From Octopus sinensis (taxonomy: Eukaryota): a stretch of DNA of 64,000 bases. Position 1 is the stretch's first letter, and the number at the start of each line of letters is the position of its first letter. Both the position numbers and the translations under genes were made by a program. Below are positions 19,423 to 59,494 of the stretch, piece after piece. The stretch covers positions 14,446,001 to 14,510,000 of the forward strand of contig NC_043024.1 in the NCBI RefSeq assembly GCF_006345805.1, given 5' to 3'. The notes beneath the pieces are model-generated. The model worked only from the letters and a program-made list of their open reading frames with translations, did not search any database and had not been told where the DNA came from.

Positions 19423-19474
<52 letters not shown>

Positions 19475-19846
19475 ATTATTATTATTATTTTATTTATTTA
19501 TTTATTTATTTATTTATTATTTTTTATTTTATTTTAATTTTTTTTTGTTTGTAAATTATATAACTATCAAAAAGTATTAAAAGTTTAATATAAGATATAT
19601 AGTATACTATATATCTTATATTAAACTTTTAATACTTTTGGGTAGTTATATAATTAAAAACAAAAAAAAAATTAATAAATAAATAAATAAAATAATTAAA
19701 TAATAATAATAATAATAAAAATATAAATATAAAAAATATAAATATAAATATAAAAAATATAAAATATGAAATTCCAAATTAAAATATTTAAATTAAAGTT
19801 AAAATTTTAAAAATTATTTAAATACTTTAAACATATAAATTTTAAA

Positions 19847-19900
<54 letters not shown>

Positions 19901-20123
19901 ATTATTATTATTATTTTATTATTTTATTTATTTATTTATTTATTTTTTATTTTATTTTAATTTTTTTTTGTTTGTAAATTATATAACTATCAAAAAGTAT
20001 TAAAAGTTTAATATAAGATATATAGTATACTATATATCTTATATTAAACTTTTAATACTTTTGGGTAGTTATATAATTTAAAAACAAAAAAAAAAATTAA
20101 TAAATAAATAAATAAAATAATTA

Positions 20124-20155
<32 letters not shown>

Positions 20156-20607
20156 TATAAATATAAATATATTTAAAATTTATAAGTTTAAAATAATTAA
20201 ATAATTTTTAAAATTTTAACTTTAATTTAAATATTTTAATTAGGAATTTCATATTTTATATTTTTTATATTTATATTTTATATTTTTAAATTAATTTTAT
20301 GTTTTGGCTTATGATTTTCACTGTTTGATTTGCCTAATAGTGGTTTTATCTCTAATTTAATATAATATATTATTATATAGTATGTATATATTATATATTA
20401 TAATATTTATATGATATTATGTTATGTTTTATGATATGTATTATATACATAATATTTAATGTAAGATTGTAATATAAATAAATTATTGGATTGTCCATAG
20501 AATATCTGAATTATACCAATATTTATATGGTATCCAACTGACGTACCAGTGAATTGGATGTTTAATACACACCTTTGAAGGATCTCCTTTCCTCAGTTTC
20601 TAACTTC

Positions 20608-21306: not shown

Positions 21307-24300
21307 ACAAACACATACATACTTACATATGTACACATATATTCATATATACACTCACACAGCAACAAAACCAGCAAAAATATTTTGGAATTAAAAAAAA
21401 CTTACATTTTCAGTGGTTCTCTTTTTGTTAATTGACATGAATGTTGGCTGGAATGGTTGAGATGGTATAGATTGGTATATATACTGGTATACAAAGAGGA
21501 GCTGGTATATATATACAGAACTTAACTAAAAGAGATAAAAAAAGAGCCAATATATTTTGTTAATGCATTCCACACACATCAAATGTCAATTTTAATATCT
21601 AACCAGTTAGCACTTCATGAATGGCACAAAGTGAAAGTAAATGATAAGAAGCAAATTTGGAAAAGGCAATAGGGGGAAAATGTATGTCACATTTGTGCCA
21701 TTTTGAAAATTAACAAAAGAAAGAAATCAAGGGTTTTAAGTCACATCATTAGGGAGGAAACGATTGACTGGGAGTCTGCTTGAGTTATGAATGTGTATTT
21801 TGTTTTGTCTTAAATGCAGCATGGAATAAAATATCTATTTTCAATTTCCAGCATCAACCGTATCAATGCCATATTCAGAATCCACAGTAACAGGTTTGTA
21901 CATATTATCACGAATTAAAAAGACTTATATCATTTAATTCATCAGGTGGGTGTGTGTATATGTGTGTGTTTGTGACTGTATGTAAATGAAAAGTGACTGC
22001 AAAAGTAAATGATAAGAAGCAAATTTGGAAAAGGCAATAGTGGCGACATGTATGTCAAATTAACACCATATTGAAAATTACCGAAAGAAAAGAATCATGA
22101 TGTTTCAGCCTCATCATTAGTAGGGAAACGATTGACTGAGAGTTTGCTGCAATTATGAATGTGTATTTTATCAGGTCATTTAGAATAGAATGTCTGATTT
22201 TGAACTGAAAGTTTATTTTACTTTATCTCAACGAAAAGCAATGAAGTTAATCAAAGTATGCGCCTAAATTATCAACATAATTTTGCCATTTTATCAGTAG
22301 CTCATTGATGCCAGCAGCAAAAGATTCTGGAGAGCAAGAAGTGATGATGAAATCACAAAAGGCTGTTTTTGCATCTTATTCAGATTTGCAAAAAGTTGCC
22401 TGGAAAACAAGAGAGTCAGTTGGTCCAAGGACTGGAGAATATGGTGGATGACAGAGTACTTCCATGTTCAGTTCCTGTAACCTGAGTAGTGATCTTTGTG
22501 CAAAATGTGGTCAAGCATTGTCTTGCAAGAGAATTGGCCTGTCTCTATCAACCAATGTTGGTTGTTTAATGGCAAGTGAACTCATCATTTCATCTAGTTG
22601 GTTGATGTATACATCTGCTGTAGTGGATAACACCAGGGCTGGACCACCAAACAGACACCATTAGCTCTGATGAAAGTAGCATTAATTTCCTTAGGTTGTT
22701 CAGTTCTCCTCAATTGATCAATAGGCCAGTTGGGTAAACCTGTCTCTAAATGTACCTATAATGACTACTGGACACAAATGGAAACAAAGTTGGCTCTGAT
22801 AAAGGCAAAATATGTAATGACCATCACTGTTAACTTCTTTCTGATATAATTTGGGAAAGGCATGAGTGGAAACATGTATGTCACATTTGTGCCATTTTGA
22901 AAATTACTAAAAGAAAGGAACCAAGGTTTTTCAGCCAGATCAGTGGGGAAGAAACGATTGAGTGAGAGTCTGTTTGAGTTATAAATGTGTATTTTATTTT
23001 GTCTTAAATGCAGTATGGAATAAGATATCTATTTTCAATTTCCAGCATCATCCGTATCAATACCATATCCAGAATCCACAGTAACAGGTTCGTACATATT
23101 ATCATGAATTTAATTCATCAGGTGAATATGTGTTTGTATGTGTGTGTAGGTGTGTGTGTGTATGTAAGAACTACTTGTATAAAATATTATACAATATGGT
23201 GTTGAATATATCAACACCATATTCAGAATCTACAGCAACAGGTTTGTTCATATTCTCATGGATTAAAAAGACTTTGTAATTTATCAGGTGGGGGCATGTG
23301 TGTGGCGTGTGTGTATGAGAGTGTTTTTGACTGTATAACATGTGTGTGTGTGTGTATTGTGTGTATGCATTTTGTATGTGTACATTTTTGTGTGAGTGTA
23401 AATTGCAAGTTTGTGCATGCGCGTGTATTTATGTCAGAACTCCTAGTATAATATATTGAGAAAATCAGAAATTCAACAAGTAGGTGCAGGAGTGGTTGTG
23501 TGGTAAGTAGCTTGCTAACCAACCACATGGTTCCGGGTTCAGTCCCACTGCATGGTATCTTGGTAAGTCTCTTCTACTATAGCCTCAGGCCAACCAAAGC
23601 CTTGTGAGTGGATTTGGTAGACGTAAACCAAAAGAACCCCATCGTATATATATGTGTGGTATAATATATATATGTGTGTGGTGTGTGTGTGTGTAAATAT
23701 ATGTGAGTATATGTTTATTTGTCTTTGTTTGCTCTGATAAAGGCAAAATATGTAATGACCATCACTGTTGACTTCTTTCTGTTATAATTTGAGAAATGCA
23801 ATAGTGGAAAAATGTATGTCACATTTGTGCCATTTTGAAAATTACCAAAAGAAAGGAACCAAGGCTTTTCAGCCAGATCAGTGGTGAAGAAACGATTGAG
23901 TGAGACTTTGCTTGAGTTTTAGATGTGTATTTTATTGTCTTAAATGCAGTATGGAATAAGATATCCATTTTCAATTTCCAGCATCATCCGTATCAATGCC
24001 ATATTCAGAATCCACAGTAACAGGTTTGTACCTATTGTTATGAATTAAAAACACTTTGTGTGATAAAATTTAATTCATCAAGTGTGTTTGTGACTGTATG
24101 TAAATGATAAGTGACTGTAAAAGCAAATTATAAGAAGAAGCAAATTTGGAAAAGGCAATAGTGGAAACGTGCCAGTGGCACGTGAAGAAAAACATTCAAG
24201 CAAGGTCATTGCCAGTACCGCCTGAGTGGCCTTCGTGCCGGGGGCACGTAAAAGTACCCACTACATTATTGGAGTGGTTGGCGTTAGGAAGGGCATCCAG

Positions 24301-26078
24301 CTGTAGAAACTTTGCCAGATAAAGATTGGAGCCTAGTGCAGCCATCAGGTTCGCCAGTCCTCAGTCAGATCGTCCAACCCATGCTAGCATGGAAAGCGGG
24401 CGTTAAATGATGATGATGATGTATGTATGTATGTCACATTAACACCATATTGAAAATTACTGAAAGTAAAGAATCATGATGTTTCAGCCTCATCATTAGG
24501 AGGGAAACGATTGACTGAGAGTTTGCTGCAATTATGAATGTGTATTTTATCAGGTCATTAAGAATAGAATGTCTGATTTTGAGGTGAAATTTTATTTTAC
24601 TTTATCTCAATGAAAAGCAATGAAGGTAATCAAAGTTTGCACCTAAATTATCAATACAATTTTGCCATTTTATCAGTAGCTTATTAATGCCAGCAGCAAA
24701 GGATTCTGGAGAGCAAGATGTGATGATGAAATCACAAAAGGCTGTTTTTGCATCTTATTCAGATTTGCAAAAAGTTGTCTAATGCCTGGAAAACAGGATT
24801 GTCAGTTGATGCAAGGTCTGGAGAATATGGTGGATGACAGAGTACTTCCATGTTCAGTTCCTGTAACCTGAGTAGTGTTCTTTGTGCAAAATGTGGTCAA
24901 GCATTGTCTTGCAAGAGAATTGGCCTGTCTCTATCAACCAATGTTGGTTGTTTAATTGCAAGTGAACTCATCATTTCATCTAGTTGGTTGATGTATACAT
25001 CTGCTGTAATTGACTTACCAGGCCTCATGAAGCTGTAGTGGATAACACCAGGGCTGGACCACCAAACAGACACCATTAGCTCTGATGAAAGTAGCATTAA
25101 TTTCCTTAGGTTGTTCAGTTCTCTTCAATTGATCAATAGTCCAGTTGGGTAAACCTGTCTCTAAATGTACCTATAATGACTACTGGACACAAATGGAAAC
25201 AAAGTTGGCTCTGATAAAGGTAAAATATGTAATGACCATCACTGTTAATTCCTTTCTGATATAATTTGGGAAAGGGATAAGTGGAAACATGTATGTCACA
25301 TTTGTGCCATTTTGAAAATTACCAAAAGAAAGGAACCAATGTTTTTCAGCCAGATCAGTGGGGAAGAAACGATTGAGTGAGAGTCTGCTTGAGTTATAAA
25401 TGTGTATTTTATTTTGTCTTAAATGCAGTATGGAATAAGATATCTATTTTCAATTTCCAGCATCATCCGTATCAATACCATATTCAGAATCCACAGTAAC
25501 AGGTTTGTACATATTAGCATGAATTTAATTCATCAGGTGAATATGTGTTTGTATGTGTGTGTAGGTGTGTGTGTGTATGTAAGAATTACTTGTATAAAAT
25601 ATTATACAATATGGTGTTGAATATATCAACACCATATTCAGAATCTACAGCAACAGGTTTGTTCATATTCTCATGGATTAAAAAGACTTTGTAATTTATC
25701 AGGTGGGGGCATGTGTGTGCGTGTGTGTATGAGAGTGTTTTTGACTGTATATACATGTGTGTGTGTGTGTATTTGTGTGTATGCATTTTTGTATGTGTAC
25801 ATTTTTGTGTGAGTGTAAATTTGCAAGTTTGTGCATGCGCGTGTATTTATGTCAGAACTCCTAGTATAATATATTGAGAAAATCAAAAATTCAACAAGTA
25901 GGTGCAGGAGTGGTTGTGTGGTAAGTAGCTTGCTAACCAACCACATGGTTCCGGGTTCAGTCCCACTGCATGGTATCTTGGTAAGTCTCTTCTACTATAG
26001 CCTCAGGCCAACCAAAGCCTTGTGAGTGGATTTGGTAGACGTAAACCAAAAGAACCCCATCGTATATATATGTGTGTG

Positions 26079-26113
<35 letters not shown>

Positions 26114-26838
26114 AAATATATGTGAGTATATGTTTATTTGTCTTTGTTTGCTCTGATAAAGGCAAAATATGTAATGACCATCACTGTTGACTTCTTTCTG
26201 TTATAATTTGAGAAATGCAATAGTGGAAAAATGTATGTCAGATTTGTGCCATTTTGAAAATTACCAAAAGAAAGGAACCAAGGTTTTTAAGCCAGATCAG
26301 TGGAGAAGAAACGATTGAGTGAGACTTTGCTTGAGTTTTAGATGTGTATTTTATTGTCTTAAATGCAGTATGGAATAAGGTATCTATTTTCAATTTCCAG
26401 CATCATCCGTATCAATACCATATTCAGAATCCACAGTAACAGGTTTGTACATATTATCATGAATTAAAAACACTCTGTGTGATATCATTTAATTCATTAG
26501 GTGAATGTATGTGTGCATGTGTATGTATGCATGTGTGTGTGTATGTGTGTGTTTGTGTTTGCATGTACATTTGTGTATATGTGTGTGCACACATGCATGT
26601 ATGTGTTGTTTTTCTGTGTGTCGATTTTTTTTCCACCATCTTCCTTTTCTCTTGGACTCTCCTGTCTCCTTTTCTGAAGAAGAGCTTTGGTTGAAACGTA
26701 AAACTACCTTTCTTCCCTTCCCTGAGCATCTCTTAATACTTTACGTACCACGTACACGTTCGACTTGTTTTTTTTTGTGCTTGTTTTATGTTTTTGGGGA
26801 TTTACTATATATATAATATATATATATATATATGTGTG

Positions 26839-26872
<34 letters not shown>

Positions 26873-26873
26873 C

Positions 26874-26906
<33 letters not shown>

Positions 26907-26947
26907 TATTTAGATATATATATATATATATTTAGATATATAATATA

Positions 26948-26989
<42 letters not shown>

Positions 26990-27010
26990 GATATATATAT
27001 ATATAATTAT

Positions 27011-27045
<35 letters not shown>

Positions 27046-29954
27046 ATATATATATATATAGTAAATCCCCAAAAACATAAAACAAGCACAAAAAAAAACA
27101 AGTCGAAGACGTGGTACGTATAAAGTATTAAGAGATGCTCAGGGAAGGGAAGAAAGGTAGTTTTACGTTTCAACCAAAGCTCTTCTTCAGAAAAAGGAGA
27201 CAGGAGAGTCCAAGAGAAAAGGAAGATGGTGGAAAAAATATATATATATATATTTAGATATATATATAATATATTCGCGGTTCGCCCGCCCTCCCCCACC
27301 CCCACCACCCATACCGGAGAACACTCTGTTTACACCATCCCCTCTACCACCGCCACCACTACGTGTGTCTGTTCCTCCTACCCCTCCTCCTCAATATACT
27401 TTCTCACTATATATTTACCCCTGCCTCTCTCCCCCTGGACAGAAGCAGCTAGCGCCGCAGCTCATCAAACGTCCCACTTAACCTGTTATCTTATGTTCCT
27501 CCTGTTTGAAATGTGTCACTGCCTCAACCGGCTATCTCCTTCCAGCCCCCTCCCCCACTCGTGATATCCTACGTTTTACTTCCTACTTTTCATTCTGTCT
27601 AGAACCTGCCACCAACCCTACCTGTCATCGTTTCTCTTTACCCCAAACCTTCCCCACTGGTGCTCCCCTATATTACATGCACCCCCCCACTCTCTCTCCC
27701 TCTCTTCTCTCTGCCGGAACCTGCCGCAATGCAACGAAAAAGGCAATAACCGATCGTGGCCGATGCCAGACCCCTCTGGCACCTGTGCAGGTGGCACGTA
27801 AAAAGCACCCACTACACTCGCGGAGTGGTTGGCGTTAGGAAGGGCATCCAGCTGTAGAAACACTGCCAGATCAGACTGGAGCCTGGGGCAGCCCCTGGCT
27901 CCCCAGACCCCGGTCAAACCGTCCAACCCGTGCTAGCGCGGAAAACGGACGTTAAACGATGATGATGATGATGATGATATATATATATTGAGTATAGTCA
28001 CATTTATTGACAATTATAATTCCTGTTTTTGGTGAAACATTTCAACCTATTGTTTATATTAATTTTGTGTATACACATTAGCTAATTGCTAAATTATCCA
28101 TCAATTTGGATGGCGAAAACATAAATACTAATGGAGAAACAGATCCAGAAAAAAATCAAACACCAGACAGACTTAACTGATAAAACAACAGAAATTGCCA
28201 AAACTGGCATCAGTCTTAAGAATTCTTCGTTGGCATTTTTCAGACAATTATGGTCCCTGTTGGTGTATATGTTTTCATTCATGTGCCCCAACTACAGCAT
28301 GAGACCATTTTAGTCTTTATTTCTAGCAATATAAGTGTTTTTCAACATCCTAATCACAGTTAGTGACATAAATATATATACATACATACATACATACGTA
28401 CATACATATATATATCTATACATCGCCGTGATAGATCGTTAGCCACTACACACATTTTTTTCTCTCCTTGTTTTTTCTGTGTCCCTTTCTATGGAAGAGC
28501 GTAGGCTCGAAACGTAAAAGACTTTTTCTATTTCTATTCCTGAGCGCTATACTAATACATCTGTTTGTTTTGTACTCCACCTGCCTTCGTCTTTTGTGTT
28601 TTTTATGTAAACTCTCCCTACATATATATAGGCACATGTAGGCTCAGGCATGGCTATGTGGTAAGTAGCTTGCTTACCAACCACATGGTTCCAGGTTCAG
28701 TATCACTGCATGGCACCTAGGGCATGTGTCTTCTACTATAGCCTCGGGCCGACAAAAAGCCTTTTGAGTGGATTTGATTGACAGAAACTGAAAGAAGTGC
28801 ATCGTATATACATGTATATATTTGTGTGTCAGTGTTTGTCCTCCACCATCGTTTGACAACCGAGCAAAAAAGACCGATAGAATAAGTACTAGGCTTGCAA
28901 AGAATAAGTCCTGGGGACAATTTGTTCAACTAAAAGCAGTGTTGTGGCATGGCTGCAGTCAAATAACAAAAACAAGTAAAAGAATATATATATATATATA
29001 ACCTGTCTATATAACCTATATATGTAACCTGCCTTCTTCTGTTCTCTACTCTACTTGAACGGTTCCATCATCTCCTCCTCCTTCCTCACACAATAGCCAT
29101 TCCTCCAGTACTCTGCTTCTTATAACCAGAAATGGTTCTGATGAAAGTAGCATTAATTTCCTTAGGTTTTTCAGTTCTCTTCAATTGGCCAATAGACCAG
29201 TTGGGTAAACCTGTCTCTAAATGTACCTATAATGACTACTGGACACAACTGGTAGCAAAGTTGGCTCTGACAAAGGCAAAATATGTAATGACCATCACTG
29301 TTAACTTCTTTCTGATATAATTTGGGAAAGGCATAAGTGGAAAAGTGTATGTCACATTTGTGCCATTTTGAAAATTACCAACAGAAAGGAACCAAGGTTT
29401 TTAAGCCAGATCAGTGGAGAAGAAACGATTGAGTGAGAGTCTGCTTGAGTTATAAATGTGTATTTTATTTTGTCTTAAATGCAGTATGGAATAAGATATC
29501 TATTTTCAATTTCCAGCACCATCCGTATCAATACCATATTCAGAATCCACAGTAACAGGTTCGTACATATTATCATAAATTAAAAACACTCTGTGTGATA
29601 TCATTTAATTCATTAGGTGAATGTATGTGTGCATGTGTATGTATGCATGTGTGTGTGTATGTGTGTGTTTGTGTTTGCATGTACATTTGTGTATATGTGT
29701 GTGCAGGTGTGTATATGTGTGTGCAGGTGTGTACATGTGTGCGCACACACATGCATGTAAGTGTTTTTTTTTTGTGTGTCAATTTTTTTCCTCCATCTTC
29801 CTTTTCTATTGGACTTTCATCTGTTTCTGAAGAAGAGCTTTGATCAAAATGTAAATCACCTTTCTTTCCTTCCCTGAGTACCTGCTAATACTTTACACTT
29901 ACCGTGTCCGCGAGTTGTTGTTTATTTGTTTGTTCTTTGTGTTTTTGAATTTAC

Positions 29955-29997
<43 letters not shown>

Positions 29998-31056
29998 GAG
30001 ATATGTTACAAAAAGAAAATAGAAACTACACATGGTAATGTAAGGGGAAAGTAAGAAGAAAAATAAGTGAAAATGCACATTGGAAATCAAAAAAAGTAAA
30101 GGTTTTTTATGCAAAGTAACGAAAGATATATACAATTAGGAATAAAAGTAATAAAAGTCATTACTGTGAATTGTTAAAGAGATTCAAAAGCATACCAGTT
30201 TCGTGAATTTACTAATCATTGCTTTGAATACAACTATTCATTGCTTTATTGAGTATAATCACATTTATCGACAATTATAATTCCTGTTTTTGGTGAAATA
30301 TTGCAACCTGCTGTTTATATTAATCTTGTGTATACAACACATTAGCAAATAGCCAAATCACCCATCAACTTGGATGAAGAAAACATAAATACTAATAGAG
30401 AAACAGGTCCAGAAAAATCTGAATACCAAGTGGACTTAATTGATAAGACAATGGAAATTACCAAGACTGTCGTCAAGAATTCTTAGTCGACATTTTTCAG
30501 ACATTTATGGTCCCTGTTAGTGTATGTTTTCATTCATGTACCTTCACTACAGCATTAGAGCATTTTAACCTTTATTTCTAGCAATGTAAGTGTTTCTTGA
30601 CATCCTAACCACATTTAATGATAATAATATATATGTATATAGGCGCAGGAGTGGCTGTGTGGTAAGTAGCTTGTCTACCAACCACATGCTTCCGGGTTCA
30701 GTCCCACTGCGTGGCACCTTGGGCAAGTGTCTTCTACTATAGCCTCGGGCCGACCAAAGCCTTGTGAGTGGATTTGGTAGTTGGAAACTGAAAGAAACCT
30801 GTTGTATATATGTATATATATATATGTGTGTGTTTGTGTGTCTGTATTTGTCCCCTATAATTGCTTGACAACCGATGCTGGTGTGTTTATGTCCCCATTA
30901 CTTAGTTGTTCGGCAAAGGAGAACGATAGAATAAGTACTGGGCTTACAAAAGAATAAGTCCTGATTAAAGGTGGTGCTCCAGCATGGCCACAGTCAAATG
31001 ACTGAAACAAGTAAAAGAATAAAAGAGTTATATATATATGTATATATATATATATG

Positions 31057-31109
<53 letters not shown>

Positions 31110-32244
31110 CCTGTCTATAACTAATTTAGAGACGAACTACCATTCCACAACTCAGTCAATGAAGAACCTGTCCAGAACCATGCTGTGAGACATATACCAT
31201 GCAAAATACTAATCTAAAATTTTAGTATTTTATAGAGATTGAACAGTAAGATTATTACAATCATATAATATAGAAGAGCAAATACTTTCAAAATCTCAGC
31301 GAATACCATACAAAGAAACATTCATCGTAAAAATATTAACCTAAAATCAAATAAAGTATAAATTGAACAATAAAAATTAATAAAGTAATATCTTTATATA
31401 TAAAAGTGAAGTTGTGTGAGTGTCTGTCTCCTACGATTTAGATTGTTAACTACTCCCACATTTTGCGGTGCAGTTTAACCAAAAGCGGGTATCTTATAGT
31501 CGTGATTCATACCCCTTCTGGGTATTAGCGCACGTCTACGATGAGTCTACGATTTTAAAAATAATTTACCATCATTTTTTTCCATTTTAATGCATTTTTC
31601 CGCTATTATATAAGGGAAGTAACTCTCTAAAAATGTCTACGATGAGTCAACGATTTAAAAAAAATTTACCATAATTTTTTTTCCATTTTTAATGCATTTT
31701 TTTGCTATTTTTTGGCTATAATGCTCTAAAAATGCTTTATAGTTACTTCCCTTACAAACCCGAGCAACGCCGGGCGATACTGCTAGTAATCTATAAAAGT
31801 AAGTACTTGTACATTGACTACGCACGTTTCATGGCTGCATTAGGACTATATAATATAGTTTATGGTTGTTCGTCTCTACATTAGTTATATACATATATTA
31901 TATATTATATTATAAAGTTCAGTCAAATATTATTATACTGAATTTTACCTGTAAGGTTGGAATAATAATTTATTCCTTAATAATAGTATTATTATTATAT
32001 ATAACCTGTCTATATAACCTATATATGTAACCTGTCTTCTTCTGTTCTCTATTCGACTTGAATGTTTCCATCTTCCATCTCCGCTTACCTCCCCCATACA
32101 ATAGCCATTTCTCCTGTGCTTTGCTTGTTATTACCAGGAAAGGCTCTGAAGAATGCAGCATTAATTTTGTTCAGTTTTCCGAGCCAAATTTACTCCTATA
32201 AGAAAAAATATATAATGACCTTTATTTTTAACTTGTTTCTGGTA

Positions 32245-32291
<47 letters not shown>

Positions 32292-35200
32292 AGGAGTGGA
32301 GGTGCCAAGGCCCAGTTGTTAGGGCAGCGGACTCGCGGTCGGAGGATCGCGGTTTCGATTCCCAGACCGGGCGTTGTGTGTGTTAATTGAGCGAAAACAC
32401 CTAAAAGCTCTACGAGGTTCTGGCAGGGGTGGGGTGGGGTGGCGACCCCTGTTGTACTCTTTCACCACATCTTTCTCTCACTCTATTTTCCTGTTTCTTG
32501 AGTAATGCTGTAATGGACTGGCATCCCATCCAGCTGGGAGGGGGGAACACATCTGCCACAGAAACCAGGAAACCAGGCCCATGAGCCTGGCTAGGCTTGA
32601 AAAGGGCGACATTTACGTTTTATAAGGTAAGGAAGAAAATGGAGAAGAGCTTCAATTGACAGACATCAGCAAGATTTATTTATTATAATCATAGAAATAT
32701 ATAAATAAATAAATACAACTCCACCCTTACAGCTGTTTCTATTTTGGGCGTCCAGTATGCTAAAGCTGACATATCATACAAAAATTGAATTGACTCCCTG
32801 ATGAAGCTTTGGAGTTCAATTTTTGTATGATATATCCACTTTAGCATACTGGACCCACAAAGTAGAAACATCTGTAAGACTGGAGTTGTATTTATTCATT
32901 TATTCCTATGATTATAATAAAAATATCTTATTTGATGTTTATCAATTGAATCTCTTCTCCATTTTCTTCCTTGCCTTATGTAAATTCTGGATAAACTTTT
33001 GTTTACCTCTACCTGTATCTATTATTCAATTGTACTATTGCCTTGCAAAAGTAAGCCTTTGAATATTAATTAGGTATCCCTCCAGTAGTATACTGGATAT
33101 TTATTATCCCTTAGATGGTTGTCTTACCTCTAACTCATATATACTCTATGTGTGTGTATATATATATATATAACAAAGTGGAGTTGTAGGGTACCACACG
33201 AGTGGAATTATATATGAAAGAAGGTTTGAAAATACAATTTTAAAAGATGTTTATTTACTTTACCGGTTTCACTCTTTGGAAAAAGATTGTCAAAAGTAAC
33301 ATGTAAAAGTTTGGTTGTGTTAATTATTGGTTGTTACAAAATGCTACATTACATATATACAGTCTTTGGTAACAAGAACATGTTAAGGATATAAGAAAGT
33401 TTAACAAGTTCCCTAAAATATTGGGCACAAAAAATTACAACATAAATATACATTCTCAAGAAAATGTTAAAGATAGTTACCAGACGGAATCATTAAAAAG
33501 TTCAGTGGGATATTGGTATTGTACAATACCAATATCCCACTGAACTTTTTATAATTATATATATTTATATTTGTGGAGGAACTTGTGGAAGAATTAGACC
33601 GAGGAAGACATGGGATGAGGTGGTGAAGCATGATCTTTGAATGTTGGGTCTTATCAAGACGACAAGTGACTGAGACCTTTATTTGTATGCCATACTTGAG
33701 AAGACCCATCAAGCCAAGTGAAATTGTAGTTATGCCCAATCCTGGTGTCATGTAACAGGCGACCACGCTGGAAGCACGTACAAAGCATACTTCAAATATT
33801 GGGCCACAGGGAGGTGATAAATGACCAAGGCTTAGAAAAGACTCATGAAGCAAAGTGAAATCACAGTTGCAGCCTATACTAGAGTCACATTACTGGCATC
33901 CAGGCCAGTGCCATATACGAAGCAACTGTTACTGTCTTGGAGTGGTTGGCATTAGGAAGGGCATCCAGCTGTAGAAACCATGCCAAATCAGATTGTAACT
34001 TGGTGCAGCTCTCCAGCTTAACATTTTTGATAGATAGATAGATGGACGGACGGATAAAGAGTGAAACAGATGTGGATCATAACTAAAAAAGATGAGAAAA
34101 GAGTCAATATATTCTGTTAATGCATTCCACACACATCAAATGTCAGTTTTGATATCTAATCTGTTAGCATTTCAACAAAAGCACAAAGTGAAAGTAAATT
34201 ATAAGAAACAAATTTGGAAAAGGCAATAGGGGGAAAATGTATGTCACATTTGTGCCATTTTGAAAATTACCAAAAGAAAGGAACCAAGGTTTTTCAGCCA
34301 GATCAGTGGTGAAGAAACATTTGACTGGGAGTCTGCTTGAGTTATGAATGTGTATTTTATTTTGTCTTAAATGCAGTATGGAATAAAATATCTATTTTCA
34401 ATTTCCAGCATCAACCGTATCAATACCATATTCAGAATCCACAATAACAGGTTTGTTCATATTATTATGAATTAAAAACACATTGTGTGATAAAATTTAA
34501 TTCATCAGGTGTGTTTGTGACTGTATGTAAATGATAAGTGACTGTAAAAGCAAATTATAAGAAGAAGCAAATTTGGAAAAGGCAATAGTGGAAACGTGCC
34601 AGTGGCACGTGAGAAAAACATTCAAGCAAGGTCATTGCCAGTACCGCCTGAGTGGCCTTCGTGCCGGTGGCACGTAAAAGTACCCACTACATTCTTGGAG
34701 TGGTTGGCGTTAGGAAGGGCATCCAGCTGTAGAAACTTTGCCAGATAAAGATTGGAGCCTAGTGCAGCCATCAGGTTCGCCAGTCCTCAGTCAGATCGTC
34801 CAACCCATGCTAGCATGGAAAGCGAACATTAAACAATGATGATGATGCTGATCTATGTCACATTAACGCCATATCTAATCTGTTAGCACTTCAAGAAAGG
34901 CACAAAGTGAAAGTAAATCATAAGAAGCAAATTTGGAAAAGGCAATAGGGGGAAAGTGTATGTCACATTTGTGCCATTTTGAAAATTACCAAAAGAAAGG
35001 AACCAAGGTTTTTCAGCCAGATCAGTGGGGAGGAAACAATTGACTGAGAGTCTGCTTGAGTTATGGATGTGTATTTTATTTTGTCTTAAATGCAGTATGG
35101 AATAAGATATCCATTTTCAATTTCCAGCATCATCCGTATCAATGCCATATTCGGAATCCACAGTAACAGGTTTGTACATATTGTTATGAATTATAAACAC

Positions 35201-36396
35201 TTTGTGTGATACCATTTAATTCGTCAGGTGAATGTGTGCATATGGGTGTGTGCATATATATGTGTTTGTGACTGACTATGTGCATGTATGTGTATGACTG
35301 TGTGTAAGAACCACTTGTATAAAATATTGAGAAAATCAGAAATTCAATATTCTATGGAATAAAATAACCTATTTTCAATTTCCAGCACCGACTGTATCAA
35401 TACCATATTCAGAATCTACAGTAACAGGTTTGTTCATATTATTATGAATTAAAAACACATTGTGTGATATCATTTAATTTATCAGGTGAATGTGTGTATG
35501 TGTGTGTGTGTTTGTGTATGTGTGTTTGTGTCTGTTTGAGAACGTGTGTATATGTGTGTCAGAACTACTTGTATAAAATATAATTATAACTTATTTATAA
35601 ATAAGTATAACTTATTTATAACTAATTGTATAAACTTTATACTTGTATAAAATATAAGGTGGCAAACTGGCAGAAACGTTAGCACGCCAGGCAAAATGTT
35701 TAGCGGTACTTCATCTGCCATTACGTTCTGAGTTCAAATTCCACCGAGGTCAACTTTGTCTTTCATCCTTTCGGGGTCGATAAATTAAGTACCAGTTATG
35801 CACTGGGGTTGATGTAATCGACTTAATCCCTTTGTCTGTCCTTGTTTGTCCCCTCTATGTTTAGCCCCTTGTGGGCAATAGAGAAATAAGAACTACTTGT
35901 ATAAAATATTGAGGAAATCAGAATTCAGCTATTGACAATAAGTTAAAAAAAATAACTTGGGCATTTTGTATTAACTTAAATATTTTGATAAGACTGTTCA
36001 ATAATTCTGTATATATATTTTTATCATCACCATTTTCTCTACACTTACCATGCTTTTATTATATGTTAGGGGAGTTGTCACTGTTGGAATTACTATTTCA
36101 CCTATTAAACTATTTATTATAGGTTGCACTAGTTGTCACCATCTGAAATGAGATATAGAGACACGAGTCTTTTACTCCTTTACTTGTTTCAGTCATTTGA
36201 CTGTGGCCATGCTGGAACACCGCCTTAAGTCGAGCAAATCGACCCTGGGACTTATTCTTTGTAAGCCTAGTACTTATTCTATCAGTCTCTTTTGCCGAAC
36301 CACTAAGTTATAGGGACGTAAACACACCAGCATCGGTTGTCAAGCAATGCTAGGTGAACAAGCACAGACACACACACAAACACACACACACACACA

Positions 36397-36483
<87 letters not shown>

Positions 36484-38070
36484 TATAGATATATACGACA
36501 GGCTTCTTTGAGTTTCCGTCTACCAAATCCACTCACAAGGCTTTGGTTGGTCCGAGGCTATAGTAGGAGACACTTGCCCAAGATGCCATGCAGTGGGACT
36601 GAACCCGGAACCATGTGGTTGGTAAGCAAGCTACTTACCACACAGCCACTCCTGCACCTCTTCAAAATTACACCAAAGTCCCTAATTTTTTCCCCTCTTT
36701 GTCCTTTCCAGTTGTTTTCTGCACATGGTGGATATCCTATCAATAACAATTTTACTGTATATATGCATATGAATGGATATATTTTATATTCCTCTATACG
36801 TTGGATAAGCAGATTTTACGAAGCATGATGTACTTCAAAATACTCCACTAAACTCACTACTCTATAATGGAAGGCAAGGTTTATGATATCGGAAGAATAT
36901 AATCTTCTTCCATCATCTTCTTGTTCTTCGTGTAGTTCAGGCTTCCGGCAGGCGAAGAGAGAAGACTTCAAGTACAAATGCTATTTACAACTGGTTTATT
37001 TACAAGATTTATAGAATAGGTGTAGTGTGCTGCTCTCAGCTACCATCTTTAGCTGTGTGTATTGTGTAGTAGCTCCGTTAGTGCAGGCGCATTGCCTCTG
37101 GAGATACAACATGTAGACAGGTCCAGCCAACGGTGGTGTTCAGCCAGCGCTGCTGTGAAGGTGGCACCAAAACAGAGAGATTTGAATCGAGTTTTCCCAT
37201 AATATATATTTCTATATTTCTTTACTACCCACAAGGGGCTAAACATAGAGGGGACAAACAAAGGGATTAAGTCGATTATATCGACCCCAGTGCGTAACTG
37301 GTACTTAATTTATCGACCCCGAAAGGATGAAAGGCAAAGTCGACCTCGGCGGAATTTGAACCCAGAACACGTGACAGCAGACGAAATACAGCTACGCATT
37401 TCGCTCGGCGTGCTAACGATTCTGCCAGCTCACCGCCTTATATTTCCCATAATATAGTTTTCCATCGCGAGCCTTGTTGTGATCTCGCGCATGGCAGATG
37501 GATGCAGGTGAGGTCTTGCTCCACTCTCAGAGATAGCAATGGCTTCCACGAGATCTCATCCAATATGGCGCTACCTGCTTGTGCTACTACAACTCCAATA
37601 AATACAAACTCTCGACGATCTGAATGACTTCCAGTGACTTCCACAAATTCTCAACAACTCCTATGACCTTTCTCTCATCTCAGCCAATGCGCTACTTTGT
37701 GTAAGACTTCAATTAGTTCATTCTTCCAATTCCACAGGCGTGTCAATGACTCTCGCCACAACATCTCCCCTTTTGAAATTGACTTCCATTGGAAATTAAT
37801 ATTATTATTATTGTTGTTATTGTTATTTATTTTTTCTTACACAGTACCTCCTTTTTTGAAATTTTCTTCCTTGGGAAGTTTAATATATCTTCTGTTTAGA
37901 CACTACTTCCAACCGTTCTCTCTGTTTCCTCTTTCTTGGGCTCCCTGTTTTGGCGTTGTAACATCAAAGGTGTCGTAGAGCACTTCCATGTGTATCTCTT
38001 TTCATTTTTCCGTATATCTATTTATTAGCTGGTTTAAATGTCTTTTGCATATATATATGTACACACACAC

Positions 38071-38105
<35 letters not shown>

Positions 38106-41100
38106 TAATATTTGTGGAGAGAATCTGTGGAATTAATAGACCCAGGAAGACATAGGACGAGGTGGTGAAATATGATCTTTGAATGTTGGGCCTCATGGAG
38201 ACAATGACGAGTGACAGAGACTTTTGGTAGTATGCCATGCATGGAAAGGCCCATCAAGCCAAGTAAAATCGTAGTTGTGGCCAATGCCAGTGTCATATAG
38301 GACACACCCTTCGAACACTGGGTTTCATTCAGAGATAGAGAGATGGATGGATGGATGGATGGTGAGCTAGGCACAGGTATAGATCATAGCTAAAAGCGAT
38401 AAGAAAAGAGTCAATATATTTTGTTAATGCATTCCATACACATCAAATGTCAATTTTGATATCTAACCTGTTAGTACTTCAACAAAAGCACAAAGTGAAA
38501 GTAAATGATAAGAAGCAAATTTGGAAAAGGCAATAGGGGGAAAATGTATGTCACATTTGTGCCATTTTGAAAATTAACAAAAGTAATCAAAGTTTTTAAG
38601 TCACATCATTAGGGAGGAAACAATTGACTGAGAGTCTGCTTGAGTTATGGATGTGTATTTTATTTTGTCTTAAAAGCAGTATGGAATAAGGTATCTATTT
38701 TCAATTTCCAGCATCATCCGTATCAGTACCATATTCAGAATCCACAGTAACAGGTTCGTACATATTATCATGAATTAAAAACACTTTGTGTGATACCATT
38801 TAATTCATCAGGTGAATGTGTGTGCATGTGTATGTGTGTTTGTGCACGTGTTGTTTGTATCTGTTCATGGACGTGTTGGTATGTGTGTGCATCATGTGTG
38901 TGTGTGTGTATGTTTAAGCACAACTTGCATAAGATATTTAAGAAAATCAGAAATTCAGTGATTGACAATAATCAAAAACAACTAAGTGTTTTGTATATTC
39001 ACAGGTTAAATACTTTGGTAAAACTCTTCAATAATCCTGTATATATGCGCAGGAGTGGCTGTGTGGTAAGTAGCTTGCTTACCAACCACATGGTTCCGGG
39101 TTCAATCCCACTGCATGGCACCTTGGGCAAGTGTCTTCTACTATAGCCCTAGGCTGACCAATGCCTTGTGAATGGATTTGGTAGACGGAAACTGAAAGAA
39201 GCCTGTCGTATATATGTTTGTGTGTCTATGTTTGTCCCCCTAGCATCGCTTGACAACCGATGCTGGTGTGTTTACGTCACTTAGCGGTTCGGCAAAAGGG
39301 ACTGATAGAATAAGTACTGGGCTTACAAGGAATAAGTCCCGGGGTCGATTTGCTCGACTAAAGGCGGTGCTCCAGCATGGCTGCAGTCAAATGACTGAAA
39401 CAAGTAAAAAGAAAAAGAAAATAAAGAAAGAATTCTGTATATATTTTTTGATCCTCACCATTTTCTCTACACTTACCTTGCTATTATTATATGTTAGGTG
39501 AGTCATCGCAGCTGGAATTACTATTTCACCTATTAAACTATTATAGGTTGCACTAGTGTCTCCATAATGCCATGATGGACCGTGAAGTCTGGTGTAGCAT
39601 GGTAAATTCCATTGTCTCGACCACGGTCGAACAATGATGAATGATGAGTGTCTCCATCTGAAATAAGATGTGGAAACACTACCCTCAAAATAACACCAGA
39701 ACCCCATATCCTTTTCCCCCTCCTTTCCTTACCGTTTCCACAGCTGGTGGATGTTCTTCTGAAAAGTATGCCATTTGCAGTACCAAGGATATGGCATGAA
39801 CCAACAAACCACTATACAGATTGTTAAATCTGCTTAACTAACATCAGAGGTTTCTCTAAGAAAAACAAATCCAAGATTATTTATCCAGATTACCCTTCAG
39901 CCTTAAAACGAATTGCTCATGCTGCTGAAAATTTTCCAATTCCAGAATCTCCTTCATCTTTTGGCAAAGATAGTTTAAGCAAAGAAAGTACTGCATCTAC
40001 TTTAGTTGAAGGCATGTCAAGTGGTCACTGTGATGAACCAGGATCTTCAAAAAAAGTTCCTCATTTATTAAGTCAACTTGAGTTAGTGGCCGTTGCCAGC
40101 ACCGCCTCGACTGGCTTCTGTGCCGGTGGCACATAAAAAGCACCATCCGAACGTGGCCGGCTTCCGTGCCGGTGGCACGTTAAAAGCACCAGCCGATCGT
40201 GGCTGATGCCAGACTCCCCTGGCACGTAAAAAGCACCCACTACACTCGTGGAGTGGTTGGCATTAGGAAGGGCATCCAGCTGTAGAAACACTGCCAGATC
40301 AGACCGGAGCCTGGTGCAGCCCCTGGCTTCCCAGATCCCCGGTCGAACCGTCCAACCCGTGTTAGCGCGGAAAACGGACATTAAACGATGATGATGATGA
40401 TGATGACTTGGGTTTAACAAAACAAAAGTCCGAACTACTGGGCCCCAGGTTGAAACAATGGAATATTTTACATGATGGTGTAAAATGCCAAAAATGGCAT
40501 ACAGAGTTGCATGAATTTTTTTACAGAGAATGACGGTATTTGTTGGTTTTGTTGTGATGTTGAAGGACTCCTATGTGAGACAGAGTATGGCCATAATCCC
40601 AAAGATTGGAGAATCTTCGTAGATTCCAGCAAAGCAAGCCTAATAACTGTTTTGCTGCATAATGGTAATCAAAAACCTTCAATACCACTGGCACATGCTG
40701 TGGGATTAAAGGAAACTTATGAATCAATGGATAAAATTTTGCACTTGATTAAATATTCTGAGCACAAGTTGAATATATGCAGGGACTTGAAAGTTATTGG
40801 TTTGCTTCTTGGGTTGCAAATGGGGTATACAAAGCATCAGTGCTTTGTGTGCCTTTGGAACAACAGAGATGACCTTGTTCTTATAGTTGAGTCACTACCA
40901 GAACTAGTGAAGAAATTTCAGGTGTGGAAGTAAGGTCTAGAATCGAAGGGCCTTAGAGTTAAGCTAGCAAAAGCCAAAGTCTTAATAAGAAGGAAAGCAG
41001 ACAAATCGCAATCCCTTCAAGTAGATGGCCCTATGTAGGAAAGGCATCAGTAGAATTTCCATAAGGTGTACTTGATGTAAGTTATGGACACATAAGGGAT

Positions 41101-44100
41101 GTGGAGGTAGATGCTCCAAGAATGTAGCTGTGAGAATAAGAATAAACTTGGCAAAGTTCCGAGACCTCCTACCACATATACAAACACATATGTATATATA
41201 CATGTTGGGTTTCTTTTAGTTTCTGTATATTAAATCCACTCACATGGTTTGGGTCAGGTTACAGCTATAGTGAAAGACACTTGCCCAGGGTACTATGCAG
41301 TGGGATTGAACACAAGACCACATGGCTGGGAAACAAGCTTCTTAACCACACAGCCACACTAGCACATACACACACACACACACACAAATATATACATATG
41401 AATACACATACATTTGTGCATGTGTGTGTATGTGTGTATTTACTTAGCAAGACATACTCTTTTACTCTTTTACTCTTTTACTTGTTTCAGTCATTTGACT
41501 GTGGCCATGCCGGAGCACCGCCTTTAGTCAAGCAAATCGGCCCCAGGACTTATTCTTTGTAAGCCTAGTACTTATCCTATCGGTCTCTTTTGCCCAACCG
41601 CTAAGTTACAGGGATGTAAGCACATCAGCATCGGTTTTCAAGCGATGTTGGAGGGTACAAACGCACACACAAACATACACACACACACATACATATATAT
41701 TATACATATATACGACAGGCTTCTTTCAGTTTCCGTCTACCAAATCCACTCACAAGGCTTTGGTCAGCTCAAGGCTATAGTAGAAGACACTTGCCCAAGG
41801 TGTCACACAGTGGGACTGAACCTGGCACCATGTGGTTTGTAAGCAAGCTACTTACCGCACAGCCACTCCTACATGTGAAAAATAGTTGTATTAGTTTAAT
41901 GCTCCATAAAACAAAATCATTTAACATGTTCAACCATCAATGTTGAGGGTTAAGGACCAATACAAATGAGGACATTTAGAAAGGCCACAGAAGTAACAGG
42001 TATCATATTAGTGGAAGGTTTAAAATTACAAGAAAATAGAAGAGTGAGAGAGGTTTCCTGCGCAATAGGACAGAAGTAGTAAGCTCTGATGTTGATGATT
42101 GTATATTTTGTTTTATACTAAATAAGTCATCTTTTCTTAATTTCAGCAACATCTTCAGCAGCACCATCTAAACCAACAGGTTTGTGAATGTTATAATTAA
42201 CTATTACACTTTTAAGGCCCCCTTTTAATTCAGTCAATGTAGTAAGAAGTGTAAAAAGAGGGAAAATGCACAGAAATTTTATATTGGAAAAAACATGTTT
42301 ATGAAATAAAATATTTTACATAACCAACTGGTTTTGCTTATGCTAATCATGAATTAGTGGTTAGTAATAATTTTTATAATTTCATGCTTTCAGTATAACA
42401 AATCTCAAAATGTTTCCCTGTATATAAATGTAATGGAACAACTTTTGTTCAACAACAGTTAAATAAAAAGACTACATTTACTGAAAACATCAACTGTGTC
42501 TTACTATGAACATATAACCAGTTTTGGACTATGTAAATATTGGGTTGTCCGGAAAGTTTGTGCCGATTTATGGTAGCTTACCTTTCGACTTATTTTAGAA
42601 CATGGTTCAGTCCATAAAGTAGGATTTAACAACACCTCCATTTAGAGCACAGTTTAAGCTATCTTTTCATGGAAGAAGGTTTACGTTCCTATAACTTTAA
42701 AATGGAAGATAAGAAAGTTCATTTTCGGCACTTGATGCTTTGGGAACCAGACAAAAATTGCTGCAGCTCGGCTGGGATGTGTTACCCCACCCTCCATATT
42801 CACCAGATATTGCTCCTTCGGATTTCCACTTATTCAGGTCTCTGCAGAATAGTCTTAATGGTAAAAATTTCAATTCTTTGGATGACGTAAAAAGATACCT
42901 TTATGAATTCTTTGCCATGAATCCACCCCAATTTTGGAGACAAAAGGGTATTTTCAAGTTAAAGGAAAGATGGCGACGCATTGTGCAACAAAATGGTTCA
43001 TATTTGGTTGATTAAAAATGTAATGGCAAATATTTATTGACCTTTTTCTTTCCTTTAAAAATCGGCATGAACTTTCCAAACAACCCAATATTTTAGTTCA
43101 TAAATACATATCTTTTTAATTTGCACATATATAACATTTACTTTCCCCAAAAAGGTAATTATCTCACCTACTTCTAATAATAATAATCACTGATTGTCTC
43201 TCCTAAAATCTATTTACCTTCCTATTATTCATTTACAAAATATCTATTCTCCTAACATGGAATGTAAACTTATACTGATAGCATGAAGTTATATCATTAT
43301 CACTAACGACTTAGTCAAGATCATCATAAGCAAAACCAGTCAACTATGTAAATAATTTACTCTTTACTCTTTACTCTTTTACTTGTTTCGGTCATTTGAC
43401 TGCGGCCATGCTGGAGCACCGCCTTTAATTGAGCAACTCGACCCCGGGACTTATTCTTTGTAAGCCCAGTACTTATTCTATCAGTCTCTTTTGCTGAACC
43501 GCTAAGTGACGGGGACATAAACACACCAGGATCGGTTGTCAAGCAATGTTGGGGGGACAAACACAAACACACACACACACACACATACAACGGCTTCTTT
43601 CTGTTTCCATCTACCAAATCCACTCACAAGGCTTTGGTCTGCCCGAGGCTGTAGTAGAGGACACTTGCCCAAGGTGCCACGCAGTGGAAATGAACCCAGA
43701 ACCATGTGGTTGGTAAGCAAGCTACTTACCACACAGCCACTCCTGCATCTATGGATTGATGTCTAAATTGATGTGTAAATTGACAGGTGTGACGAACCAC
43801 TACAAATCAAATGTTTCCATACAAAGTGATAGCCCTTGATTTTGAGAAGCCAAGGTTTCTATCCTTATACCATCCTTAATGAAACAGTGAAAGAAGATTG
43901 TTTTATTGTCAGTTACTTATGTTTTGTACAACTTTTAACAAATCATATTTTATCTTTTCAGGTTTTGCAACAACATCGAGATATTTTACAACACCAATAG
44001 GTTTGGAAATATTTTATTATTATATTTTAAAACTTGATTTTCTGTTAAACCTGTGTTAATGTAAGTAGCTTAGGTCTGTATGGGTATGTACTCCAAAGTA

Positions 44101-46130: not shown

Positions 46131-46170
<40 letters not shown>

Positions 46171-46453
46171 AATGACTGAAACAAGTAAAGATTATACATC
46201 TTTTTCAGACACATCCAATTCAGTCAGTAGTAGAACCAGTATGCTCTTTTTACTTTTTTACTTGTTTCAGTCATTTGACTGTGGCTATGCTGGAGCACCA
46301 CCTTTAGTCGACCAAATCGATCCCAGGACTTATTCTTTGTAAGCCTAGTACTTATTCTATCGGTCTCTTTTGCCAAACCGCTAAGTTACAGGGACTTAAA
46401 CACACCAGCATTGGTTGTCAAGCAATGTTGGAGGGACAAACACAGACACACAA

Positions 46454-46501
<48 letters not shown>

Positions 46502-48093: not shown

Positions 48094-48150
<57 letters not shown>

Positions 48151-48168
48151 ATGTATATCATCATCATC

Positions 48169-48220
<52 letters not shown>

Positions 48221-58809: not shown

Positions 58810-58856
<47 letters not shown>

Positions 58857-59463
58857 TAATACTAAGTAATTAAGGGTTTAGCAACGATTTGCCTCACCAC
58901 ACACCGAATTTAGAAATAGCAGTCAAAGAGTTATAGCTATTCTTTCTACTAAAAGGGAGATCTCAGTAAAACCACAGCACTTAAATTCGGTGTGTGGTGA
59001 GGCAAATCGTTGCTAAACCCTTAATTACTTAGTATTACTTAAACTTTCCTCGAATGAGGCTTTTACATGCCGAAATCTACTTGGTGAAATTAATGATTAT
59101 TCCAAATTAATTAATTTCACCCTATATTATTACTGATAACCATATATATATATATATTATATATATATATATATATAAGTAATACTAAGTAATAAGGGTT
59201 TAGCAACGATTTGCCTCACCACACACCGAATTTAGAAATAGCAGTCAAAGAGTTATAGCTATTCTTTCTACTAAAAGGGAGATCTCAGTAAAACCACAGC
59301 ACTTAAATTCGGTGTGTGGTGAGGCAAATCGTTGCTAAACCCTTAATTACTTAGTATTACTTAAACTTTCCTCGAATGAGGCTTTTACATGCCGAAATCT
59401 ACTTGGTGAAATTAATGATTATTCCAAATTAATTAATTTCACCCTATATTATTACTGATAACC

Positions 59464-59494
<31 letters not shown>

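What the first reader, a model, noticed from the sequence alone, without database searches (positions are those of the whole stretch)
21852..38753. Mucin-like repeat built as one micro-exon per repeat, amplified with its introns
Seen: ten 42-nt exons (21852, 23046, 23982, 25461, 26401, 29517, 34409, 35128, 35386, 38712) encode variants of [14 protein letters not shown] over 17 kb. None has a stop or indel and all keep the acceptor and donor, while the surrounding cassettes are broken by SINEs, mariner and fold-backs. Known: vertebrate gel-forming and membrane mucins usually encode their PTS repeats in one large exon. Inference: a 140-aa glycosylated stalk whose length can change in 14-aa steps by exon skipping or cassette gain and loss.
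Basis: partly seen in the sequence, partly recalled or inferred. Interest (0 to 1): 0.85.

Follow-up and report, generated by a model that had tools for sequence, protein, structure and literature searches.

The report
Octopus mucin built from tiny exons
Ten tiny look-alike exon candidates are part of a set of over a hundred in one giant octopus mucus-type gene, where each likely adds one short, probably sugar-coated repeat to the protein; this one-exon-per-repeat design is already known from chicken and blood-fluke mucins, and whether splicing varies the length here is untested.

Summary
The ten 42-nt exon candidates are real: AG..GT, phase 1/1, no stops. They are one block of a much larger set. 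The host is a giant octopus SCO-spondin-like, gel-forming mucin: three VWD units with TIL and LDLa, then about 112 Ser/Thr/Pro micro-exons interleaved with two-exon discoidin-fold domains, plus an ordinary giant PTS region. An O. vulgaris predicted protein already strings seven such repeats in frame.

These ten exons are no more conserved than their upstream introns (pi 0.064 vs 0.08-0.10; pN/pS 0.9), and two acceptor-less copies and two exon-less flanks exist. Pooled over 99 copies, frame and splice sites look constrained but residues do not. There is no direct RNA junction evidence, so exon skipping is untested.

One exon per mucin repeat is published for chicken Muc13, which also proposed splicing control of length, and for schistosome SmPoMuc. 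This scan reported the same design in another genome (e1-8670757). Verdict: new member of a known kind, notable for its scale.

The parts
21852..21893 (+). D1, 42-nt phase-1/1 micro-exon ([14 protein letters not shown])
23046..23087 (+). D2 micro-exon ([14 protein letters not shown])
   Evidence: same peptide twice in the O. vulgaris model P0113
23982..24023 (+). D3 micro-exon
25461..25502 (+). D4 micro-exon
26401..26442 (+). D5 micro-exon
29517..29558 (+). D6 micro-exon
34409..34450 (+). D7 micro-exon
35128..35169 (+). D8 micro-exon
35386..35427 (+). D9 micro-exon, most divergent; only about 32 nt of homologous upstream flank
38712..38753 (+). D10 micro-exon
23209..23241 (+). broken copy: 3' part of exon and donor kept, acceptor lost
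25624..25656 (+). second copy of the same broken exon, inside the duplicated block
22022..22171 (+). orphan upstream flank without an exon (repeated at 24427-24550)
   Evidence: 78% identity to the cassette flank
22048..26513 (+). 2.4-kb tandem duplication, 95% identical, that copied D2+broken copy+D3 to D4+broken copy+D5
8619..8660 (+). M1, diverged 42-nt micro-exon ([13 protein letters not shown])
   Evidence: present in P0113
10142..10183 (+). M2 micro-exon
15111..15152 (+). M3 micro-exon, directly 5' of the D block
3590..4757 (+). discoidin-like module 1: exon A 3590-3852 + exon B 4622-4757
6313..7487 (+). discoidin-like module 2: 6313-6578 + 7352-7487
10436..11610 (+). discoidin-like module 3: 10436-10701 + 11475-11610
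13153..14326 (+). discoidin-like module 4: 13153-13418 + 14191-14326 (5' boundary of the spacer)
   Evidence: predicted fold
42147..42179 (+). 33-nt micro-exon ([10 protein letters not shown]), shortened relative of the 42-nt family
43962..44000 (+). 39-nt micro-exon ([12 protein letters not shown])
49216..54084 (+). discoidin-like module 5: 49216-49487 + 53955-54084 (3' boundary of the spacer)
   Evidence: 100% identical to RefSeq XP_036370449.1 over the aligned parts
56971..57003 (+). 33-nt phase-1/1 micro-exon present in RefSeq isoform X1 and absent from X2
59898..59927 (+). candidate 30-nt phase-1/1 exon, not S/T/P-rich, unsupported by any model seen
62297..62332 (+). 36-nt micro-exon ([11 protein letters not shown])
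63600..63620 (+). 21-nt micro-exon with GC donor, start of the next array
26627..27238 (.). fold-back insertion (94% inverted arms) between D5 and D6

Best explanation
The ten 42-nt units are in-frame, phase-1/1 exon candidates with intact splice sites that are likely spliced into the mRNA of one giant octopus VWD-type (SCO-spondin-like, gel-forming) mucin, where they would form part of a Ser/Thr/Pro-rich, probably O-glycosylated spacer between two predicted discoidin-fold domains. Shown in DNA: every module of the gene's central region begins and ends in intron phase 1, so any exon-plus-intron cassette can be copied or lost without shifting the frame. Cassettes were copied in tandem at several scales: single exons, 2-3-exon blocks and whole domain modules. 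Inferred: unequal crossing-over or conversion drives the turnover, selection keeps length, frame, splice dinucleotides and S/T/P composition but not exact residues, and most copies are included together to build the repeat. Occasional skipping is possible but was not shown.
For: The window's 29 candidate exons (28 AG..GT, 1 AG..GC) join into 915 codons with 0 stops. Phase and strand control over -80 to +232 kb: 97 phase-1 plus-strand S/T/P hits (about 81 distinct donors by my count) vs 3 and 3 in phases 0 and 2 and 1-2 on the minus strand. Pooled 99 copies in 11 families: 0.0053 indels per site in exons vs 0.034 and 0.054 in flanks (p=1.5e-4), 0 stops vs 4.0 expected (p=0.017), 3 variants at 44 splice positions; synonymous 0.328 vs non-synonymous 0.318 per site. 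An intron-only search found only 4-5 further dead cassettes. Pfam VWD and TIL hits lie upstream. O. vulgaris model CAI9741631.1 joins the VWD units, LDLa, 13 upstream-family repeats, domains and seven D repeats. RefSeq models of O. sinensis and O. bimaculoides run from the LDLa exon into the first micro-exon peptide. The predicted domain has pLDDT 89.9 and its top matches are neuropilin b1, DDR2 and factor VIII C2. The C9 paralog has a Thr-rich phase-1 micro-exon candidate after 40 of 40 exon-B copies examined, mostly one per domain.
Against: No spliced read across a D-exon junction was seen. Within the D family, exons are no more conserved than upstream introns and pN/pS is 0.90. The pooled test is biased: seeds were chosen for AG..GT and open frame, three acceptor-less copies were left out and 20 of 119 sequences fell in clusters under three (one of them a broken copy). 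The O. vulgaris model includes a retroelement-derived false exon (window 51607-51741), so it is at least partly ab initio. The RefSeq O. sinensis models seen cover only fragments and none includes a D exon. The gene's signal peptide and 3' end were not located.
Confidence: 0.8

Rival explanations
1. Regulated cassette splicing: the symmetric micro-exons are skipped in variable numbers, so one gene makes a ladder of spacer lengths between discoidin-like domains.
For: All exons are symmetric and multiples of 3. The 42-nt families carry non-consensus donors (GTTTGT, GTTCGT, GTCAGT, GTTAGT), while 9 of 10 domain exons in the window have GTAAGT. RefSeq isoforms X1 and X2 differ by exactly one 33-nt micro-exon of this locus. 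Splicing-based polymorphism is reported for SmPoMuc and stated for FIM-C.1.
Against: No D-exon isoform data. The weak donors are inherited from one ancestor and are not independent. Downstream arrays alternate two exon types in regular higher-order units, which fits a constitutively built super-repeat. Both RefSeq isoforms end in an early terminal exon at 57974, so they may be minor or partial transcripts.
Confidence: 0.35
2. Most D cassettes are recent, neutral duplicates: only one or a few are used and the rest are intact only because they are young.
For: Exon divergence equals upstream-flank divergence and pN/pS is about 0.9. Broken copies exist.
Against: Across families with 25-35% flank divergence, length, frame and AG/GT are kept while the flanks collect indels. 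Seven intact repeats appear in the sister-species model.
Confidence: 0.12
3. Mutually exclusive (Dscam-like) choice of one exon per cluster.
For: Clusters of near-identical tandem exons with conserved upstream flanks.
Against: No convincing antisense docking match for the upstream flanks over 664 kb (best E 0.36; downstream hits were TG microsatellites). Copies are nearly identical, so the choice would yield little diversity. Introns are long enough (216-4850 nt) for joint inclusion.
Confidence: 0.04
4. Assembly artefact (haplotype or read duplication).
For: A highly repetitive region; the nearby giant PTS region is full of frameshifts.
Against: The closest blocks are 95% identical with indels and the others 83-94%. 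The sister-species model has its own array.
Confidence: 0.03

Closest known systems
Chicken (and zebrafish) Muc13 (Lang et al. 2006, PMC1552070; passages and section 8 read)
   Same: PTS domain encoded one near-identical repeat per exon (at least 12 repeats of 20 aa); the authors propose length control by splicing.
   Different: Muc13 is a transmembrane SEA mucin with one short array. Here it is a VWD-type mucin with about 112 micro-exons in at least 11 families, interleaved with discoidin-like domains, plus a giant conventional PTS region.
Schistosoma mansoni polymorphic mucins, SmPoMuc (Roger et al. 2008, PMC2576457; abstract, passages and section 22 read)
   Same: A 27-nt exon with its flanking introns repeated in about 1-kb genomic units (up to 20); introns as conserved as exons; repeat-number variation; a lophotrochozoan.
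   Different: A small multigene family with shown transcript polymorphism and exon repetition. Here it is one giant gene with irregular cassettes broken by mobile elements, and no transcript data.
Lophotrochozoan gel-forming mucins / hemolectin / SCO-spondin-like proteins with F5_F8 domains (Lang et al. 2016, PMC4948705; passages read)
   Same: Three VWD units followed by F5/8-type-C-like domains and PTS. The exon-A profile also hits mucin-2-like proteins of Liolophura and Lineus and a VWD protein of Macrostomum.
   Different: The domains are too degenerate for Pfam F5_F8_type_C (0 hits). The exon structure of these mucins' PTS was not discussed in the passages read.
Chicken MUC2 (Jiang et al. 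2013, PMC3549977; passages read)
   Same: A gel-forming mucin whose PTS cassettes span many exons (32-44), with one in-frame splice variant shown.
   Different: Longer 69-aa repeats and CysD domains rather than discoidin-like domains.

Membership tests
Gel-forming mucin (VWD-C8-TIL type) | Three N-terminal VWD(-C8-TIL) units | tested here: met
   Pfam VWD on 5 and TIL on 2 of 7 upstream exon translations (one VWD hit below cut-off); the close O. bimaculoides relative P0092 lists VWD, C8, TIL and LDLa; P0113 maps three units at -155 to -80 kb
Gel-forming mucin (VWD-C8-TIL type) | Large PTS-rich region | tested here: met
   112 micro-exons = 1376 aa, S+T+P about 60%; giant TTSIP-type region at about +232 to +265 kb
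Gel-forming mucin (VWD-C8-TIL type) | VWD units and PTS region in one transcript | tested here: inconclusive
   Joined only in predicted models (P0113; LDLa to first micro-exon in P0114 and P0092); no RNA seen
Gel-forming mucin (VWD-C8-TIL type) | Signal peptide and C-terminal VWD/cystine knot | tested here: inconclusive
   A motif scan to +464 kb found a TIL-like and a TSP1 exon downstream but no fourth VWD or cystine knot; the gene ends were not defined
Gel-forming mucin (VWD-C8-TIL type) | O-glycosylation and polymerisation | not testable with these tools
   inferred from composition only
One-exon-per-repeat mucin design (Muc13 / SmPoMuc type) | Each repeat unit is one symmetric exon duplicated with its introns | tested here: met
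One-exon-per-repeat mucin design (Muc13 / SmPoMuc type) | Exons present in mRNA; repeat number varies among transcripts | tested here: inconclusive
   uninformative; only predicted models
F5/8 type C (discoidin) domain | Discoidin beta-sandwich fold closed by terminal cysteines | tested here: met
   AF2 pLDDT 89.9; Foldseek top hits neuropilin b1, DDR2, factor VIII C2, E about 1e-4, TM up to 0.6; Pfam model not matched by sequence
Dscam-type mutually exclusive exon cluster | Docking/selector complementarity | tested here: not met
   no significant antisense match in a limited blastn test of four flank queries

The most novel reading that the evidence does not exclude
This mucin uses more than 100 frame-neutral micro-exons as a splicing-controlled molecular ruler: tissue- or stage-specific skipping sets the glycosylated distance between discoidin-like binding domains and so tunes mucus mesh or avidity. 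It would be the largest such array in a gel-forming mucin, sitting in the same gene as a conventional giant PTS exon, so the two modes of repeat evolution could be compared side by side.
Probability: 0.25. Interest if true: 0.65.

Novelty: new member of a known kind. Interest (0 to 1): 0.36.

Why it matters
The design is known, but this locus is an unusually large example: about 112 symmetric micro-exons over about 370 kb plus a giant PTS region in what appears to be one gene, with a paralog on another contig built the same way. It offers a direct test of the 2006 proposal that splicing controls mucin-domain length, because copy-specific SNPs let long reads be assigned to individual exons. It also explains why public annotation breaks this gene into fragments. 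Without RNA evidence of regulated skipping it is a good example rather than a new principle.

Tried and rejected
RNA: no RNA holder was listed for 21500-30000 (the RNA labels are guesses and shares of 0.04-0.17 probably come from dispersed repeats). Laying four runs on 34300-54200 was swamped by dispersed repeats and showed no exon junction among the listed rows (15 joints shown, 1203 not shown). No read evidence was obtained on a repeat-free stretch, so splicing of the D exons stays open.

Proteomics: six peptides or accessions were absent from the stored, cut supplements of the O. vulgaris skin-mucus and ink proteomes. The supplement of PMC11431876 could not be read. None of this is evidence on expression.

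Sequence searches: Pfam on five domain exons and a PDB search with the exon-A profile gave 0 hits. Lang et al. 2007 was not held. The wide structural search was not run. The scan's earlier notes had nothing near this place or for this sequence.

Rejected ideas: exon-over-flank conservation as proof for the ten exons; docking sites; the cassette as a dispersed transposon (15 of 16 genome matches lie in the window and 1 at the gene's first micro-exon); a membrane stalk (no transmembrane segment was looked for or seen; the host is VWD-type). In one search, 44 'other' hits were mostly dispersed repeats picked up by queries whose flank is a mobile element; I set these aside by eye.
Full report
Observation. 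All ten positions hold a 42-nt unit flanked by ttccAG and GT, open in phase 1, encoding variants of [14 protein letters not shown]. A pattern count gave 13 on the + strand, 0 on the - strand and 0 in 30 of 30 shuffles. The three extra units are diverged relatives at 8619, 10142 and 15111. A fold-back sits between D5 and D6; the mariner-like remnant I located lies beyond the array at 42537-43090.

How the array grew. Each exon shares about -200 to +110 nt of flank with the others at 83-94% identity, and a 2.4-kb block (D2, broken copy, D3) was duplicated at 95% identity. A genome search with one cassette gave 16 matches, 15 in the window and one at the gene's first micro-exon 67 kb upstream, so the unit is locus-specific. 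Flanks of the D, M and upstream families and of late copies still align at about 66-80% in blocks, indicating one ancestral cassette.

Host gene. The array lies between two-exon modules (exon A 263-272 nt, exon B 130-136 nt; together phase 1/1). Five modules lie in the window and four more within 464 kb. The window's 29 candidate exons join into 915 codons without a stop. In 664 kb of the contig I found VWD and TIL exons at -150 to -80 kb and a TSP1 exon at +376 kb, a Thr/Ser/Pro repeat region of about 33 kb at +232 to +265 kb whose frames are broken in this assembly, and 112 intact micro-exon candidates of 21-60 nt (110 GT, 2 GC donors; 1376 aa, about 60% S/T/P). Of these, 103 lie before the giant region and 9 after it. 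Ten further homologues were found, 8 visibly damaged. The phase and strand control gave 97 phase-1 plus-strand hits vs 1-3 in each of the five other classes. An AlphaFold model of one module (pLDDT 89.9) matches discoidin domains. The exon-A profile found 78 proteins, including mucin-2-like proteins of a chiton and a nemertean and a Pfam F5_F8 stretch in a hemichordate protein. A paralog on contig C9 repeats a domain followed by a Thr-rich phase-1 micro-exon about 40 times, so the micro-exon linker is a family trait that this locus amplified on its own.

Public models. RefSeq O. sinensis proteins on a contig of the same length match exons 49216 and 53955 at 100%; their two isoforms differ by the 33-nt exon 56971-57003. 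That such isoforms usually rest on RNA-seq is recalled, not checked. RefSeq SCO-spondin-like models of O. sinensis and O. bimaculoides continue from the LDLa exon into the first micro-exon peptide. The O. vulgaris predicted protein CAI9741631.1 (2480 aa) strings the VWD units, 13 upstream-family repeats, seven domains and seven D repeats, three of them variants not found intact here. It also contains a false exon from a retroelement remnant, so it shows that the array exists in a sister species, not that it is spliced.

Selection. Pooling 99 of 119 sequences in 11 families (20 in clusters under three dropped; three acceptor-less copies not included) gives 2 exon indels in 375 sites vs 41 in 990 flank sites (p=1.5e-4), 0 stops vs 4.0 expected (p=0.017) and 3 variants in 44 splice positions, with equal synonymous and non-synonymous rates. 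These figures are inflated by how the seeds were chosen; an intron-only search recovered only 4-5 extra dead cassettes, so the bias is probably moderate. The pattern fits mucin repeats, where frame and composition matter and exact residues do not.

Mechanism. Shown: symmetric phase-1 modules, tandem cassette duplication, some cassette death, and different repeat sets in the two species' sequences. Inferred: splicing into one mucin mRNA; O-glycosylation of a spacer of up to 178 aa (M3, ten D exons, 42147, 43962) between discoidin-like domains; turnover by unequal crossing-over or conversion. Untested: regulated skipping. RNA contigs were uninformative, so I hold mostly joint inclusion as the main reading and regulated skipping as the chief rival.

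Comparison with what is known. But chicken Muc13 has one exon per repeat, and its authors already proposed splicing control of length (PMC1552070, passages and section 8). SmPoMuc genes repeat a 27-nt exon with its introns up to 20 times and show transcript polymorphism (PMC2576457, abstract, passages and section 22). Chicken MUC2 spreads PTS cassettes over many exons (PMC3549977, passages), and FIM-C.1 is said to be polymorphic through alternative splicing (PMC7177656, passage). VWD mucins with F5_F8 domains are characteristic of lophotrochozoans (PMC4948705, passages). O. vulgaris skin mucus contains SCO-spondin-like and mucin proteins (PMC11431876, passages), but I could not tie them to this gene. 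Eight literature searches (listings only unless cited above) returned no paper on this octopus array; the library lacks most subscription journals. The scan's own notes describe the same design in another genome and a micro-exon cluster elsewhere in this one; the SmPoMuc lead came from there and I checked the paper.

Verdict. Real feature, larger than reported, with the interpretation partly right. It is a new and large member of a known design. Interest 0.36; up to about 0.65 if regulated, tissue-specific skipping is shown.

Noticed in passing
L051-L067 (G000:C9:75.09-75.24 Mb): Paralogous giant gene with about 40 tandem discoidin-like modules, nearly all followed by one 30-48-nt Thr-rich phase-1 micro-exon candidate; neighbouring copies are most alike.
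   Followed up: partly
L068-L070 (G000:C2:30.79-30.81 and 31.30 Mb): Further loci with the same domain; five near-identical exon-A copies at a period of about 2.1 kb.
   Followed up: partly
G000:C28 about 14.678-14.711 Mb (L047-L050, L071): Giant TTSIP/SATTSIP repeat region of about 33 kb; the Thr-rich frame switches repeatedly, probably from assembly errors in the repeat.
   Followed up: partly
G000:C28 14.564-14.583 Mb (L036-L038): Higher-order unit of two different 36-nt micro-exons repeated five times at a period of about 3.2 kb with near-identical spacing.
   Followed up: partly
upstream family, L025-L029: Most 42-nt upstream-family exons have an in-frame internal AG 12 nt downstream of the acceptor, a possible alternative acceptor giving a 30-nt exon; one natural 33-nt variant exists.
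   Followed up: no
window 56971-57003 and 57974: RefSeq isoforms include or skip a 33-nt micro-exon and stop in an early terminal exon, fragmenting the gene model.
   Followed up: partly
window 50640-51740: Retroelement (integrase-like, label recalled) remnant in the intron between exons A5 and B5, wrongly absorbed into O. vulgaris and O. bimaculoides protein models (P0113, P0010).
   Followed up: partly
window 19293-20171 and 58819-59496: AT-rich tandem duplications (periods 423 and 322 nt, 96-98% identical) that look like hairpin-type units.
   Followed up: no
window 63600-63620: 21-nt micro-exon with a GC donor; 2 of 5 copies in its family have GC, the others GT.
   Followed up: partly
window 39500-40900: Degenerate open-frame fragments resembling a DNA-transposon protein, interrupted by a dispersed repeat; not identified.
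   Followed up: no
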